Source: Sphyrna mokarran
Taxonomy: Eukaryota
Assembly: GCA_024679065.1 (NCBI GenBank)
Contig: JAGIQG010000006.1
Location: forward strand, 95,604,001 to 95,668,000
DNA length: 64,000 bases
Direction: 5' to 3'
The translations under genes and the position numbers were made by a program. The first letter of the stretch is position 1. The number at the start of each line of letters is the position of its first letter. This document shows, piece after piece, positions 29,505 to 42,387 of this stretch. The notes beneath the pieces were generated by a model, which worked only from the letters and a program-made list of their open reading frames with translations, was not told the origin of the DNA and did not search any database.

Positions 29505-29547
29505 TATGCATTGCTGCAAACGGGTCGTGCTTACAGTGGATTTCCAT
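29505..29547 (-). CDS. PAX5: PAX5 alternative first exon 1B, coding part (MEIHCKHDPFAAMH-R)
   Basis: ATGGAAATCCACTGTAAGCACGACCCGTTTGCAGCAATGCATA|gtaagt; 43 nt, phase 1, consensus donor. Matches the known Pax5 1B N-terminus. Confidence 0.95.
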
Positions 29548-30089
29548 GAAAAGGCGCAGCCGGTCTTCAACTCGGAGAAAACCTCGATTTCCTGGTCTGG
29601 ATTTAACCCCTTCACCTATACTCCCAAAAAAAACAAGAGAGGGGTGAGCAGCACCCCACGCAAACCCAGAAGAAGATCTCGATGCCAGCCACTAATTGCA
29701 GCTCCTACGTCTTTGTGATCCACAAGGTTTCGGACGGATTGCACAAGGAACGTAAAAGTTAAGTTTGACAAATGCAATGCATTGCCCCCCAAAAAAGATC
29801 CAATTGCTACCTAGTGACAGCAGGGGATTTTAACTTCGAAATCGTTCGAAACCAGAAAAAAATCCTTTTATGAATTCCAGCTTCTTTTTTTGGCGTTTTC
29901 CTATGCAATTTGTCCGCTGTGTGTGTGTGAAGGCGGGTTCCCGTTTCCCCGGAGTGCGCTGGCCCCCTGCTCTGTATTCAGTCGCGCTCACTCTCCTCCA
30001 TAGTGTTTAAATGTGGCTGAGCCCGCGGTGATTCGGCGCTGATTCGCCCGAGGCTCAGCCCTGCTGGGACGGCGCTCGGCCCCAGTCTC

Positions 30090-30345
30090 TGTCAATCACA
30101 GCACCGTCAGCCAATCGAGGAGCAGTCTTCTTTCCTGCCGACCAATCGCACACAGCAGCCCAGCTTTTTGACCAATCCCCGGGCGAGCTGCTGACTTATT
30201 CACCAATGACACGCCTGTCTGAAACAAGTGACCAATCCCAAGGTCTGCATTCCCCAAAACATTCACCAATAAGCTGCAGCTTTTATAGAGAGCAGAGGTG
30301 GTCTCGCTGCTAATTGGCTATTTAATACAGTATCCTGATTGGTTC
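30090..30345 (-). promoter_or_regulatory. Exon 1B promoter with CCAAT (NF-Y-type) box array
   Basis: CCAAT on + at 30111, 30142, 30172, 30203, 30232, 30266; ATTGG at 30313 and 30338. CpG-rich context 0.55-0.8 kb upstream of the 1B ATG. Confidence 0.75.
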
Positions 30346-33300
30346 ATACTGCTAAATTCTCGAGGCGGGCCTCTTTATTAAAGGGAATTCATTCACATGT
30401 TCAAAATGAATTTAATTTTTCATTTGAATAATTTTAAACAATAATTTTCATCCACAGAAAATCCTTTGGTTTTTTGAATATATAAATAAATCCTTCACTT
30501 TTGCGCTAACTTAAAGGAGCTGTATAACATCCTAGTGTCCGACTTTAGTGTAAATATATTTTTAAATGCAGATGAATTAACCACTGAATGATATCAGTTT
30601 GTTCGAAAGTGCATTACAATACAGCAAAATTAAGACATTGTTCGAATTTTATTTCTAAACAGCTGCCGGGAAGGACTAAATACAAAGCTGTTATAGGGAC
30701 GGGTCGATTTGTATATCAGTGCAAATTAACTATACATAAAGGATCGAGGAGTTTTTTTTAGAAAAACATGATTTTAGGAGCGGTCAGCTGCAATATTAAA
30801 TAATCATGAAATCAAGGACCTTTTACACAACTAACAGGTGTCAAATGTTCACAACTTGCTAACCATTAAATTTGATTTTATATTTTATTTAGCTTTATTG
30901 TGGAGGAAAATTGTGGATTAAATAATATGATAAATGTTTGATAATAATTGAGATTAAATACTTAGCGTGTGAAGGAAAACGTTAACATTTCAACTCAGTC
31001 GATACACTAATTATGAAAGACAAAATCAACCCACTACGATTTCATCCTTCAACTAACGTATTGGTAATGTGAAAGAATCTCAGTGATCATTTACATAGGT
31101 TGAAATGTAATCGTGGCCAAACCTACTGTAAAGGGTAAGTCTCATTTCGTCCCATTTACATTGCTAAATCTCCACCTGCTATTGTGGACCATCCTGGTGT
31201 TGAAAACTAATTTTTCTATACAACTTCAAAGCGCTTGCACGCATATATACAAAAGGGCATTTGCGCGCGTTTAGGGGGTTGACTTCATACTGTATTTGCA
31301 AAGGAACTACCTATAAATTTCCACGAACAATCGTGTTTTAATCAACAACACAATAAACCTCCATGACTATTTATTAAACACTGGGTAAGAATATGTATTA
31401 AATTCAACAATTAAAATAGACAATCATAATAACACAACAGAGATAGCATACTATTCAATTACGTAACTTGAGAATAGCTCCCTTCTCACAATCATGGAAA
31501 CAAATCGACCCGCTGTTTTACCCCGACAATTAGTAAAGAGTTGGAAATAAGTTTTAAAAGTTAAATTTGCCAAAAATAACAAATCAAAAACGCAATCGAA
31601 AACCCAAGTCAAAATTTCATTTGAATTCCAAATGCTACGAAAACAATGGTATATTTTTGACACTCAATATGTCTGTCTGTACTGAAATATCCACAGATAT
31701 TGTCTGAATTGTATAAGAATATGACAATATTAATGTAACAGAAATAAAATGTCACTATCAATTTCCATGGATAATCGTGTTTTAATCAATAACACAAAAA
31801 ACTTCCACTTTTTAGTCCTTGTTTTTGTTGATCTGTGACCTGTTTGATCAATTACTTTTTACCTCATTGCAAAAAAACTTGGGATAATATTTCAATAAAA
31901 GAGAATCCAAATCCAAATTGTATTATTCCAACGGAAGGCTGTGGTTATAAGAAATATTAACGAGAGAGGGGTTTGGTCAAAAAGCTGATTTTCATGGATG
32001 TTTGAAAATGTCTAATTGGAATTGTTAGGGATGGGGATTTTTGAAGCTGCGTGTTGCTGAATTGAGAACAAGTGATAGCTGGGTGCACTTTTAAAATGTG
32101 AATAAAATGCCTTTACTGAGACATTGACAACAAGAACCCAGTAACTGCAAACCTGCTGGCACAATTCAGCGTCTTTCCCTTGATCTGGCCCAGCGTTTCC
32201 GAGCCTACGTTTTGAAGAAATTTCAATCTTCTGATACCGCCCTCCCCCAATTTCAGAGCTTTCTCGGAACCCGCTGTTTACAGTTATCACCTGCGGATGT
32301 GCCTAAATGATTTCTAAGTTTCGAATTTGTTTTCACATCAGCAAGCTCGCCGTTTCCTGTCTAGGAGTTTTCTGACGAGATAACGCGTTACCTCTTGGGG
32401 TGAAATACTGCGACAGTCGATAATAGTTTGAACTTCTCTAAAGTTATACTTTAGAAGGATTAAATCATCTTTCTCTATCTGTGGATATAAACTTGTCAAA
32501 TGAAATAATTATTTCTAGAGAGAAGTGAAATGCAGTTTTCAAATTCTTCCAACTCGTCCACAATGGAATTTGGAATTAGATGAGATTTAAATTTGCCCGC
32601 TAAGCCAGTGCTCTAATTGGCGCTATAAAAAGCATCTTTTCATTTTTTGACATTTAAACTCTGGAGGTGTTTACTGTCATACTTTTCATGTAAGGATACT
32701 GCAGAGATCTGCTCACAGCGGCCCACACCTCTCCACATCTGTGGTGTCCTCATACTGCAAGCTAGTAATGGCGACATATCTCTCTCCAAGTATAGTGGGG
32801 AATATTATCTGCAAAACTCTACACGTAGAAAAACAAGTAACCAAGCCTTGCCTTTCCTGTCACAATGCCCTTGGTGATGGCCTCGAGCAAAGAAAGAGGC
32901 AGCTCTTCACTTTAAGATTCTTATTCATGTTTTTTGGCCAACCTGTGCAGAGTGGGGAGGGGGCAGGAAAGAGGATCATCTCACAGGACTAACCTTGGGT
33001 CAGGCCCAAGCCTCTATCCACAGGATCAGAATGCGCCAGATCCACTGGGAGGGTCTCCCTGCTTCCTACCGTCTTGTCCATCCCCCTCCCCCCCCCCGCC
33101 CCCCACGCCCTCGCCCCGCCCCGCCCTGCAGTATATTGATGTTTCTGTGGTGCAGCGCGGTACCAATAGGTAACATAAGTGCCCCGCGATCTGTGGGTAA
33201 CTTTGTAATAGATGGAGCAGCAATTGCATGATTTAGTCTTACTTTTTATTTGTATCTTTCAATTGAAATAGATTGTGTGAGAGCATTATTGGAGACCTCT

Positions 33301-36085: not shown

Positions 36086-39000
36086 AACTTTAAAGCTTTC
36101 TTTTTCCTTTTCTCTCACAGGTTTCTTCTCACAGTGTTTCCCTGAAATGCATCTATGCTATTTGCCCCATCCATTTTCTGCCAGCAAGTTCCGCCTTCTC
36201 ACCATTGTTTCGTAAAGAGTTTTTTTTTCTGAATTCCCATTGGATTTCTTGGTGACTACCTTATATCAATGTCCTCTAGTTATGCTGTTCCACACAGTGG
36301 AAATATTCTCTCTGTATCCACCCCACTAAACCTTTCAGCATTTTAAGTACCGTTCTATTCGACCACTCCTTAGCCTGTTTTTTTCTTGGGAGCAGAGGTC
36401 TGCCATTTTCTTGATGTGTTAAACACATGCATTTCTACTGAGGAGCTGTGAGACCCACTCAAGATTAGGCACAGAGGAAGTATTGCCCCAGCTCAATGGC
36501 AAGCCACATTTTCAAAGTGCTTGCGGCCACTTGAAGTCAGTGATAACTTCGCAAACGTATCATTGGTTTTAAAGTAGTCATTCTCTCATGGGTTCACATG
36601 GTAATAAGATGAGCTCTCTGTGAAACTCATGTATGTGTCCAAAAAGCCCTTACACCACCTTTGTCCCTAAATTCATCACCAGCTGCAATGTAACTGCGGT
36701 CGATAATATGGAAATTGTATTCTTAAACACGCTGGTCTAACAACATCCATGTAATCCTCAAATTATAATACAAGCTGTATAAACAAAATTTCTCTGCAGT
36801 GCTCTAGAAACTTATTTAAATGCACTCTGCTCACACAAGGAAACTACAGGCCCTCTCTTCTCTGAACCTGTTTCAGTGCAAGTGCACCCTTAGCAGTGAC
36901 TATCCCGCAGAATGTGAGAGCTGGTTCTTGCGCCACTTCCGTTTCCAGTTTGGATACGTGGATCGAACGCATCCTCTCGAATTTTCCTTGAAAATCTCAG
37001 GCGATAGCCCACAATAGAGGGAGGGAACCGCAGACCAAGATCATTGTGAAGATTACAGCTTTTGTGTGGAGCTGTACATTGGAAGCTTCGACAGAGGGCA
37101 CTAACTCTCGCGAACTTTCTCCTGATCCAGCTCCACTTCCTACTTTTTTATTTCTTTGGGCGCTTCCCGCTATTCTTCAAGTTCATTTTTCGGGCGTTTT
37201 TCTCAAATTTCCATTCACCTATTGCCTCCGTGATTTCGTATTTCTCAACATATTGCTGTCCGTATCTCTGATAGTTGAATTTATTATATTTGTTTTTTTT
37301 TAACTTTTTAATGGATTGCTCGGCCGCATTAGTGCCCTGGGGTGCATTTTAAACCCCTAATGAAGCAAATTAATCCCTTCTTGCACCTCTATTAATCTGT
37401 TCAAAGATTAGTGATGGCAACATTCAGATTAAACAGTTATACTTTACTGTCGACTAACTAGAGTCACAATAATTTTGAAATAATTTACGTCTACGAAAAG
37501 TTTGAAATCAAATGAATGGGGCAAGTAATAGTCAAATATAAGTTCTGTGCAGAAGCAAAATGTTAAATTTTAGTTATTAGCATTGCCAAATGCATTATTC
37601 ACAGAAGCGACCACAAACGCAAACTACGAGGTTTTAACTGTGATGTCTATTGACAGCACCTAACTGAAACGGTGCTGGAACCAAATTAAAAGCACGGAGT
37701 ATTTCAGCAGTGCAATTCCCAATGAGGTTTTGAGTCTCACTGTGCAATATAACTAATACTGTCCAATCAGCATGTTCTTTTCCTTCGTGATTCTCTTTAA
37801 CTGAAACATAGTCTGTAAAATTAATCGAGAGACTTTATTCTCATTGAAAGCATCCCAGCGTCAAAGGATGTGTATATGTATGGGGGGGGGGGTATGGGGG
37901 GAGAGGATGCTGCCGGTAAAATGCCCCCAGAAATAAAAAGCAGTGGTAATCAGATATGGCTGGCAATCCTAGAACTCGGGTCCCAGTTTGGAATGTGCCC
38001 GTGAACAATGATTTCATTTGTTACTTTGTAACATTGAGTTGCAACGGAATCAGCATTAAACAGCAATTCTCCCAGCTTTTCCCGTGTAACGACAAAAGTC
38101 GTTTTGCAAGTGGCTGGTTGTTCTGGTCTGGCAGTACGATTTGGCCCTGGTAGTCCTGTAATTCACTCAGATCTACACGGGAAACACGATGAGAAGAATA
38201 GGTTGTATCAATCACCAATGTGTAACTTTGCACGCCGCTGTAATCACCGCACTGTATGGCTCTGATGTCAGATCTCTGATCTACTGTGGTGTCAGTCACC
38301 TACTAGTTACAATATTTCAAATTGGGCTTCAGTGGAACAGATACAGAGGATGAATTATGGAAAGAATTGTGACGGAAGATAATACATCTATCGATTCTCC
38401 TTGTATAATACACAGCGCACTTCTAAAGGTCTGGCTTACTCTTGTGTTTTCCTGTAGCCTGACAGGTGACTGACACTTGTGACCTGGCAAATCTAATCTT
38501 TCTACATCATGAAACATATAAGGCCATTGATTTAAGTGTGACATTTCAGAAATTATCCGTGAATGTGAAGGTGGGGGAAATGCGATCGTCGTCGTCGGGA
38601 AGACCGCGAGAGGCTGTGCCCTGCTGGAATGTCCAACTCTAAACATAACAGTGTCTTCCACTTTCTTCTCTCACTTCCCTTCACCACAGTTTACACTGTC
38701 TTAATCTAAAAAAGATACAGAACAATTTCTGATTTGCACCATAATTTCCACTTGAAGGAAAGTGCTCTTCTTCCTGCGCTCCTACTTGGCTGCTTTAAGT
38801 CTTGCAGGTGCAGAAAGTAAAATCGCACTCTTCGATGGGGTGAGGGCAAGGTCAGGACGTTCCCATCTTCAGTAATTGCTGAAGTTTCTTTTCTAGCGTT
38901 TAGGTAGCCTCTTGTGCTTAAAATGACTTTTCTCCTCACGGCCTCTGGAGAATATTCCTGCTGCAAGTTTTTTGAACCGGAAACGTGGCAGTCGGCATCC

Positions 39001-42000: not shown

Positions 42001-42347
42001 GATGTCTTCCCTTAACCTGCTCATTTCAGACAAACAGCGCAAGTGCCCATATTCACGCCCGGATATACATCTATCCTTTGTTTACGCTTAGCGTTTATTT
42101 TAAGTTTTCAAAGTTCACTAAATTCGCTTCAAATATTCCCCAGGACTTGAACGGTCATTGAACCCCGCTTGATCATTTAAAATTCCTTTGTTTTTTAAAG
42201 CAAGTGTCTGAACATTTCCGATGCATTTTTATAGAATGAATGATGTTTCTGTACTGTCAAGTATGAGGCTGTCACCAAATGCAGTCGCTTCATGCTTTCT
42301 AATTTTTTATATATTTTTCTTCTTTACAGAAACGTTTTTAAACCTAC

Positions 42348-42387
42348 CTGATCGGACACTCCTGAGCGCGCTGCCGTTTTTTTCCAT
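42348..42387 (-). CDS. PAX5: PAX5 alternative first exon 1A, coding part (MEKNGSALRSVRS-G)
   Basis: Minus strand reads agtATGG (strong Kozak), 13 codons + 1 nt, then donor CAG|GTAGGT. Phase 1 joins exon 2 to give G-HGGVNQ. The pattern EKN-x4-R-x2-R-x-G has the same spacing as mammalian exon 1A (MDLEKNYPTPRTSRTG, recalled). Confidence 0.85.

What the first reader, a model, noticed from the sequence alone, without database searches (positions are those of the whole stretch)
30090..30345. Helically phased array of six CCAAT boxes at ~31 bp period upstream of PAX5 exon 1B
Seen: CCAAT at 30111, 30142, 30172, 30203, 30232 and 30266 (gaps 31, 30, 31, 29, 34), mostly with NF-Y-type flanks (GCCAATC, GACCAATC, CACCAAT). 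The spacers are unrelated to each other, so this is not a simple tandem duplication. Two opposite-orientation boxes (30313, 30338) and a minus-strand TATAAAA (~30281-30287) close the array. Known: two or three NF-Y sites ~32 bp apart occur in cell-cycle promoters. Inference: six sites about three helical turns apart on one DNA face could form an NF-Y lattice that excludes nucleosomes or keeps the region unmethylated. That is unusual for a developmental transcription factor promoter.
Basis: partly seen in the sequence, partly recalled or inferred. Interest (0 to 1): 0.7.

Follow-up and report, generated by a model that had tools for sequence, protein, structure and literature searches.

The report
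Ordinary multi-CCAAT promoter of PAX5 1B
Six evenly spaced CCAAT boxes sit upstream of the second first exon of the PAX5 gene and likely form an ordinary docking row for the promoter-opening factor NF-Y; similar or longer rows occur elsewhere in the same genome, and a related animal keeps only four of the six.

Summary
The six boxes and their gaps are real and not chance (0 of 300 shuffles; gap regularity P 0.0008-0.007). PAX5 runs on the minus strand, so the six are inverted, 564-719 bp upstream of the exon 1B ATG. The 'six-unit lattice on one DNA face' is not supported: at 10.5 bp/turn box 5 faces away from box 1; a relative (one contig) keeps boxes 3-6 unchanged amid 27% spacer change, but has lost boxes 1-2 and shortened the box 5-6 gap to about 22. 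The better-conserved part is next door (29901-30106) and holds a perfect PBX-PREP (DECA) site, flipped relative to the known DECA-CCAAT pair. The architecture is not rare: other CpG-rich sites in this genome carry 7 to over 20 boxes, 30-32 is the commonest of three spacings tested, mouse Sp2 has five boxes, and this scan has noted such arrays in other shark genomes. The CpG-rich domain spans about 28 kb and needs no special array. Verdict: a new member of the known multi-CCAAT NF-Y promoter class; binding and start site unshown.

The parts
30111..30270 (+). Six co-oriented CCAAT boxes (30111, 30142, 30172, 30203, 30232, 30266), inverted relative to PAX5
   Evidence: boxes 3-6 unchanged and boxes 1-2 lost in organism G
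30089..30098 (-). Perfect PBX-PREP DECA motif TGATTGACAG, 12 bp from box 1, flipped relative to the canonical DECA-CCAAT composite
   Evidence: only TGAnTGACAG match in the window; no listed change in organism G; geometry
29791..30106 (-). Strongly conserved block downstream of the array in the PAX5 sense: likely core promoter and 5' leader of exon 1B (start site not mapped)
   Evidence: 2 listed differences over 29901-30106 in organism G; 10 other letters and 5 gaps over 29791-30035 in organism I
30006..30013 (-). TATA-like CATTTAAA inside the conserved block; candidate core element
   Evidence: function inferred only
30025..30046 (.). 11-bp tandem duplication; on the minus strand each copy reads as a one-mismatch CCAAT-like word
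   Evidence: organism I aligns to the first copy and its loose end resembles what follows the second
30280..30287 (-). Consensus TATA box TATAAAAG, upstream of the six boxes in the PAX5 sense
   Evidence: 30281-30287 without listed change in organism G, 30280 changed
30313..30342 (-). Two CCAAT boxes in PAX5 sense, 30 and 55 bp upstream of the minus-strand TATA; a plus-strand TATTTAAT (30319-30326) lies between them
   Evidence: state in relatives not visible (rows cut)
29505..29547 (-). Coding part of PAX5 exon 1B, followed by a GT donor
   Evidence: peptide equals the Xenopus, zebrafish and Fugu exon 1B peptide in Table 1 of PMC6132355
26671..26880 (-). PAX5 exon 2 (start of the paired box; limits approximate)

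Best explanation
The stretch is a row of six inverted CCAAT boxes upstream of PAX5 exon 1B that likely works as the redundant NF-Y-binding upstream part of an ordinary CCAAT promoter. Shown: the boxes, their NF-Y-type flanks, even spacing, position, and better conservation of cores 3-6 than of their spacers. Inferred from NF-Y biology: each trimer covers about 30 bp and bends DNA by about 80 degrees, so about 31 bp is close packing of neighbours; several bound trimers would hold the upstream border of the nucleosome-free region and fix the start site, which likely lies in or just beyond the conserved 29790-30106 block. A PBX-PREP dimer on the DECA site would bind beside the row, probably without the Sp2 bridge because the site is flipped. 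Box number and exact gaps drift between lineages, so activity is predicted to be additive, not dependent on a six-unit phase-locked lattice. Tissue specificity would come from enhancers elsewhere.
For: Cluster and regularity beyond chance. In organism G, 0 changes in the 20 core bases of boxes 3-6 against 23 substitutions in 84 aligned non-core bases, P about 0.002. Boxes 1-2 lost and gap 5-6 about 22-24 there, still above the 19-bp minimum given in PMC4889920. In 11 of the 12 other loci fetched the selected row has 4 or more boxes within 45 bp of each other in at least one chain or two nearby chains, e.g. L036 12+3+7, L047 11, L039 8, L046 7+5, L042 5+3, most at local CpG peaks. Strong-box pairs genome-wide: 363 at period 30-32, 183 at 25-27, 210 at 35-37; reversed-pattern controls 105, 46, 48. 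Papers: almost half of K562 NF-Y sites hold two boxes; mouse Sp2 promoter has five boxes in 150 bp; NF-Y footprint, bend and role at the promoter border; NF-Y/TALE sites at developmental control genes in zebrafish. Human 1B is described as TATA-less.
Against: No binding, start site or expression data for this species. The conservation test rests on one contig from one unnamed organism aligned at under 90% identity with uncertain gap placement and anchoring bias; 69 difference rows were hidden and I infer from their order that the list is complete up to 30294. The two deletion blocks in organism G are each near one turn, as a phase rule would predict. Best-period phasing is significant under some nulls (P 0.005-0.055). 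The comparison loci were picked for having three boxes at 30-35 bp, their genes are mostly unidentified (1 of 9 scanned gave a clear gene, a methyltransferase), and the genome-wide counts include tandem repeats, so rarity among developmental genes specifically was not measured. A consensus TATA on the far side of the row is kept in organism G and is not explained by this model.
Confidence: 0.7

Rival explanations
1. Phase-locked NF-Y lattice: six trimers three turns apart bind cooperatively on one face and build a structure that excludes nucleosomes or methylation.
For: Very even gaps (P 0.0008-0.007) and R 0.84 near 10.2-10.3 bp/turn (P 0.005-0.055); deletions in organism G total about 10 and about 12 bp, near whole turns; 30-32 is the most frequent of three pair spacings in the genome.
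Against: At 10.5 bp/turn R is 0.61 (P 0.04-0.16) and box 5 is 189 degrees from box 1; organism G has four boxes with gaps about 31, 29, 22-24; other arrays in the genome mix gaps of 16-44; the CpG-rich domain is about 28 kb wide.
Confidence: 0.12
2. Divergent TATA core: the two minus-strand boxes plus TATAAAAG start a long PAX5 leader near 30257, and the six plus-strand boxes plus TATTTAAT (53 bp after box 6) start an antisense RNA near 30349.
For: Both TATA words lie about 50-55 bp from a same-sense CCAAT box, a textbook distance (recalled); the minus-strand TATA has no listed change in organism G; runs guessed to be RNA give contigs over 29901-30693 and beyond (X15) and about 155 letters past 30035 (X18).
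Against: Contigs show no strand or start and the RNA label is a guess; a start at 30257 puts three short upstream ATG frames in a 710-nt leader; the DNA right of 30300 is AT-rich (GC 0.30), so TATA-like words are common; human 1B is called TATA-less.
Confidence: 0.1
3. Worn tandem amplification of a CCAAT-bearing unit of about 30 or 60 bp, now largely neutral.
For: Boxes 3/5 and 4/6 share flanks in register (14 of 24; P 0.006 with free shuffling); mean spacer identity 0.31 vs 0.26 expected; arrays with visible repeat units are common here (L039 0.52, L044 0.57).
Against: TRF finds no such repeat; P rises to 0.03-0.10 once NF-Y flank bases are held fixed; one shared flank base (30231) differs in two relatives, so part of the match is recent; cores 3-6 are conserved over spacers, so not neutral. 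Duplication may still be how the row arose.
Confidence: 0.08

Closest known systems
Multi-CCAAT NF-Y promoters (double-CCAAT modules in PMC4889920; mouse Sp2 promoter with five boxes in -150/+1, bioRxiv 10.64898/2026.02.16.706105; passages read)
   Same: Several co-oriented boxes with NF-Y flanks, gaps above the 19-bp minimum and within the reported 24-37 range, GC- and CpG-rich promoter setting, TALE site beside them.
   Different: Six boxes plus two opposed ones; host gene is a tissue-restricted transcription factor; binding not shown.
DECA-CCAAT composite bound by PBX/PREP, NF-Y and Sp2 (10.64898/2026.02.16.706105; PMC6023610; 10.1101/720102; passages read)
   Same: A perfect TGATTGACAG about 20 bp centre to centre from a CCAAT box; zebrafish pax5 has a Prep-bound DECA element 4,400 bp from the gene (supplement rows).
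   Different: DECA and CCAAT are on opposite strands, not GAnnGAC-11-CCAAT; the nearest box is lost in organism G; the zebrafish element was not shown to be the same place.
G2/M cell-cycle promoters with two or three boxes about 32 bp apart (class mentioned in PMC4889920; cyclin B2 and CDE/CHR details recalled)
   Same: Box-to-box spacing near three turns.
   Different: More boxes; no TTTGAA CHR word in 29900-30350 on either strand; not a cell-cycle gene.
Human and mouse PAX5 promoter 1B (PMC2504290, PMC6132355; passages read)
   Same: Same exon, same position between exon 1A and exon 2.
   Different: Its CCAAT content could not be read: the papers that sequenced it were not held, and no mammalian sequence was compared.

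Membership tests
Multi-CCAAT NF-Y promoter | Two or more co-oriented CCAAT boxes with NF-Y-type flanks | tested here: met
   six boxes; R-CCAAT-S in 6 of 8 vs 39 of 172 elsewhere; RR-CCAAT-S 5 of 8 vs 18 of 172
Multi-CCAAT NF-Y promoter | Spacing that allows co-occupancy (19 bp or more; commonly 24-37) | tested here: met
   gaps 29-34; about 22-24 for one gap in organism G; ranges
Multi-CCAAT NF-Y promoter | Cores conserved over spacers | tested here: met
   boxes 3-6: 0 of 20 vs 23 of 84; boxes 1-2 not conserved; one relative only
Multi-CCAAT NF-Y promoter | Lies just upstream of a start site | tested here: inconclusive
   564-719 bp upstream of the 1B ATG, GC 0.57, CpG o/e 0.73 over 29900-30300; contigs cannot show a start
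Multi-CCAAT NF-Y promoter | NF-Y occupancy and box-dependent activity | not testable with these tools
   needs ChIP/CUT&RUN, EMSA, reporters
DECA-CCAAT composite (TALE/NF-Y/Sp2) | DECA motif next to a CCAAT box | tested here: met
   30089-30098, 12 bp from box 1
DECA-CCAAT composite (TALE/NF-Y/Sp2) | Same-strand geometry GAnnGAC-11 bp-CCAAT (10-12 tolerated) | tested here: not met
   no such composite at any of the eight boxes; genome counts 443 canonical, 130 flipped at 11-13, 84 flipped at 17-19
G2/M CCAAT plus CDE/CHR promoter | CHR element (motif recalled) near the start site | tested here: inconclusive
   no TTTGAA in 29900-30350; a TTTAAA at 30006-30011 without a clear CDE (read)
Tandem-repeat-derived CCAAT array | Residual unit-to-unit similarity outside the motif | tested here: inconclusive
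   TRF negative; spacer identity 0.31 vs 0.26; dimer test P 0.006-0.10
Duplicated PAX2/5/8 promoter element | Same array or alignable DNA upstream of the PAX2 first exon | tested here: not met
   no array in the 7 kb upstream of the PAX2-like ATG; best local score reached by 41 of 300 shuffles; first exon of the PAX8-like gene not reached

The most novel reading that the evidence does not exclude
Rows of CCAAT boxes at about 31 bp are sequence-programmed scaffolds on which head-to-tail NF-Y trimers, each with a histone-fold dimer bending DNA about 80 degrees, wind the DNA into a nucleosome-like superhelix (about 480 degrees for six) in place of the -1 nucleosome. The best-fit 10.2-10.3 bp/turn and 31-bp step resemble histone-fold dimer spacing in nucleosomes (recalled), and indels would be tolerated only in whole turns, as in organism G. 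PAX5 1B would be a developmental example, with a flipped PBX-PREP site marking the direction.
Probability: 0.06. Interest if true: 0.75.

Novelty: new member of a known kind. Interest (0 to 1): 0.24.

Why it matters
Modestly. It points to NF-Y and PBX-PREP as likely inputs to the older, brain- and B-cell-active PAX5 promoter 1B, and marks a short strongly conserved block worth testing. I found no paper on CCAAT boxes or NF-Y at this promoter, but the classic promoter papers were not readable. As an architecture it is ordinary; only proof of phase-dependent cooperative NF-Y wrapping would make it important.

Tried and rejected
Simple tandem repeat: TRF finds only an unrelated 11-bp duplication. 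Paralogue conservation: PAX2-like promoter has no array and no significant alignment; the PAX8-like first exon was not within the 20 kb fetched. Canonical DECA-CCAAT composite: rejected on geometry. Structured RNA: no Rfam match at E up to 0.1 over 29600-31800. Distant orthologues in metagenome contigs: 3 of 3 hits match only the 19-base pattern and are chance. Zebrafish pax5 Prep element as the orthologue: its forward ChIP primer has no match within 3 mismatches, six core words found no orthologue among the held Prep peak sequences (file cut; 1 unrelated hit), by eye it shares only the DECA word and a 10-mer in the wrong order; a formal alignment was not made, so this stays open. Expression: no RNA holder listed on record; no evidence either way. 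Run X8 covered only 5 of 30 bins and X13's private differences were hidden, so neither tests the boxes. Look-alike findings by place: none. Paper searches for five or six CCAAT boxes and for cyclin B2 spacing gave nothing relevant.

Full report
Observation. CCAAT is not enriched in the window overall (180 vs 191.6), but six co-oriented boxes in 160 bp were not reached by any of 300 shuffles done in 1-kb blocks (largest cluster 5, in 6 shuffles), and the rest of the window has at most 3. Gap sd is 1.9; for six boxes in 155 bp that evenness has P 0.00007, 0.0008 or 0.007 for minimum gaps of 5, 19 or 24. Flanks are NF-Y-like (R-CCAAT-S 6 of 8 vs 39 of 172).

Context. PAX5 is on the minus strand: exon 1B ATG at 29547, exon 2 from 26880, exon 3 from about 18713. 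The exon 1B peptide equals the frog and fish one in Table 1 of PMC6132355 (passages). The six boxes are thus inverted and 564-719 bp upstream of the ATG; the two minus-strand boxes and TATAAAAG lie further upstream. The stretch is single-copy in the 2.77-Gb genome.

Phase. At 10.5 bp/turn the phases are 0, 343, 291, 274, 189 and 274 degrees (R 0.61; P 0.04-0.16 by null). The best period between 10.0 and 10.8 gives R 0.84 (P 0.005-0.055). Neighbours are roughly in phase, but the row is on one face only if the DNA is slightly overwound. NF-Y contacts about 30 bp and bends DNA about 80 degrees (10.64898/2026.02.16.706105, first of seven parts and passages read), so close packing alone predicts about 31 bp (inference).

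Conservation. Of 24 runs listed, 20 hold part of the stretch; I laid 4 of them on 29620-30800. Organism F (X13) spans it all with 31 other letters and 5 gaps; its private differences were hidden. Organism D (X8) gave only scraps. Organism G (X15, one contig, 29901-30693, under 90% alike) is the informative one. 40 of 109 difference rows are shown; from their order I infer that G's list is complete up to 30294. It has 2 differences in 29901-30106; box 1 is changed (30114), box 2 is removed by about 10 bp of deletions, boxes 3-6 are unchanged while 23 of 84 aligned neighbouring bases differ (P about 0.002), and 12 bp are missing between boxes 5 and 6 (gap 22, or up to 24 if two unlisted insertions fall there). 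The TATA word is kept; boxes 7-8 are not visible. Organism I (X18) aligns over 29791-30035 with 10 other letters and 5 gaps and then falls below the threshold. So four cores look selected, the number six and the period do not, and the most conserved DNA is beside the array.

A perfect DECA motif (PBX-PREP site as given in PMC6023610, passages) lies at 30089-30098, the only one in the window, 12 bp from box 1. The known composite is GAnnGAC-11 bp-CCAAT on one strand; here the DECA is on the other strand, and no box has the canonical partner. Genome-wide the canonical form occurs 443 times, the flipped form 130 times at 11-13 bp and 84 times at 17-19 bp, so the flipped form is only slightly above a spacing control. 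Zebrafish pax5 has a Prep-bound DECA element 4,400 bp from the gene (supplement rows); it was among three of eight elements not listed with transgenic lines in 10.1101/720102 (passages), and I could not show that it is the same place.

How unusual. A three-box pattern at 30-35 bp matches 4,472 times in the genome against 2,194 for the reversed control, many in tandem repeats. I picked 12 places from the first 100 listed, favouring unrelated spacers. Several exceed the PAX5 row: L036 has chains of 12, 3 and 7 boxes, L047 11, L039 8, L046 7 and 5, L042 5 and 3 before a TATA word. L046, upstream of a methyltransferase gene, repeats the PAX5 layout: inverted boxes, then a sense-strand DECA, then the gene. 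Strong-box pairs number 363 at period 30-32, 183 at 25-27 and 210 at 35-37 (controls 105, 46, 48; repeats not removed). In print, almost half of K562 NF-Y regions hold two boxes and none closer than 19 bp (PMC4889920, passages), the mouse Sp2 promoter has five boxes in 150 bp, and NF-Y sites are linked to developmental control genes in zebrafish. Earlier unchecked notes of this scan describe longer arrays in other shark genomes. I did not measure how often developmental genes in particular carry such rows. The PAX2-like paralogue has no array and no alignable promoter.

Methylation idea. CpG o/e is 0.52-0.85 in all seven 4-kb blocks from 20001 to 48000 and 0.16-0.34 in the other nine: a broad CpG-retaining domain of the kind known around developmental genes (recalled), far wider than the array.

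Origin. No tandem repeat is detected; spacer identity is 0.31 against 0.26 expected. Boxes 3/5 and 4/6 share flanks in register, a weak hint of an old 60-bp duplication (P 0.006 falling to 0.10 when NF-Y flank bases are fixed).

Mechanism. Shown: motif row, spacing, position, partial conservation. Inferred: NF-Y binds several boxes side by side, keeps the upstream edge of the promoter open and positions the start in or near the conserved block, with PBX-PREP beside it; the effect is additive and tolerant of box turnover (0.70). Rivals: phase-locked lattice (0.12), divergent TATA core (0.10), neutral repeat remnant (0.08).

Literature limits. Searches found no paper on CCAAT boxes or NF-Y at PAX5 promoter 1B; PMC2504290, PMC4301804, PMC9456430, PMC6132355 and PMC11802806 (passages) had no such statement, and the first calls 1B TATA-less. 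Busslinger 1996, Liu 2002 and the journal version of Stanney 2020 were not held and may already describe these boxes.

Verdict. A real, partly conserved multi-CCAAT promoter segment: new member of a known kind, interest 0.24.

Noticed in passing
window 42345-42387, minus strand: Candidate PAX5 exon 1A: an ATG opens a 13-residue frame plus one base before a GT donor, beginning MEKN, like the mammalian exon 1A peptide in Table 1 of PMC6132355, which found exon 1A in mammals only (chicken has one, PMC4301804). If real, the B-cell exon 1A is older than bony vertebrates. No RNA support checked.
   Followed up: partly
window 29791-30035: Block conserved at about 94% in organism I, whose flanking DNA has diverged; five further runs of organisms H-K hold small shares of the stretch (only X18 laid). 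A better target than the array.
   Followed up: partly
window 30280-30342: Mirror-like core: minus-strand CCAAT, CCAAT, TATAAAAG and plus-strand CCAAT, TATTTAAT would give divergent starts about 90 bp apart.
   Followed up: partly
L004 860-10000 and L005 1-10000 (G000:C894): The intron upstream of exon 2 of the PAX8-like gene holds over 19 kb of a 47-bp tandem repeat with a CCAAT word (gene sense) in most units.
   Followed up: no
L036 4460-5290 (G000:C2, about 94.078 Mb): More than 20 co-oriented CCAAT boxes with mostly unrelated spacers beside a CpG island; gene not identified.
   Followed up: partly
L046 4650-5055 (G000:C2, about 5.30 Mb): Promoter of an intronless METTL18-like methyltransferase gene (name recalled; Pfam PF10294) with 12 or more inverted boxes and a sense-strand DECA: same layout as at PAX5.
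   Followed up: partly
window 36562-36583, minus strand: A degenerate GAnnGAC-10 bp-CCAAT composite between exon 1B and the candidate exon 1A, the only one in the window; may be chance.
   Followed up: no
window 20001-48000: CpG-retaining domain of about 28 kb over the PAX5 5' region.
   Followed up: partly
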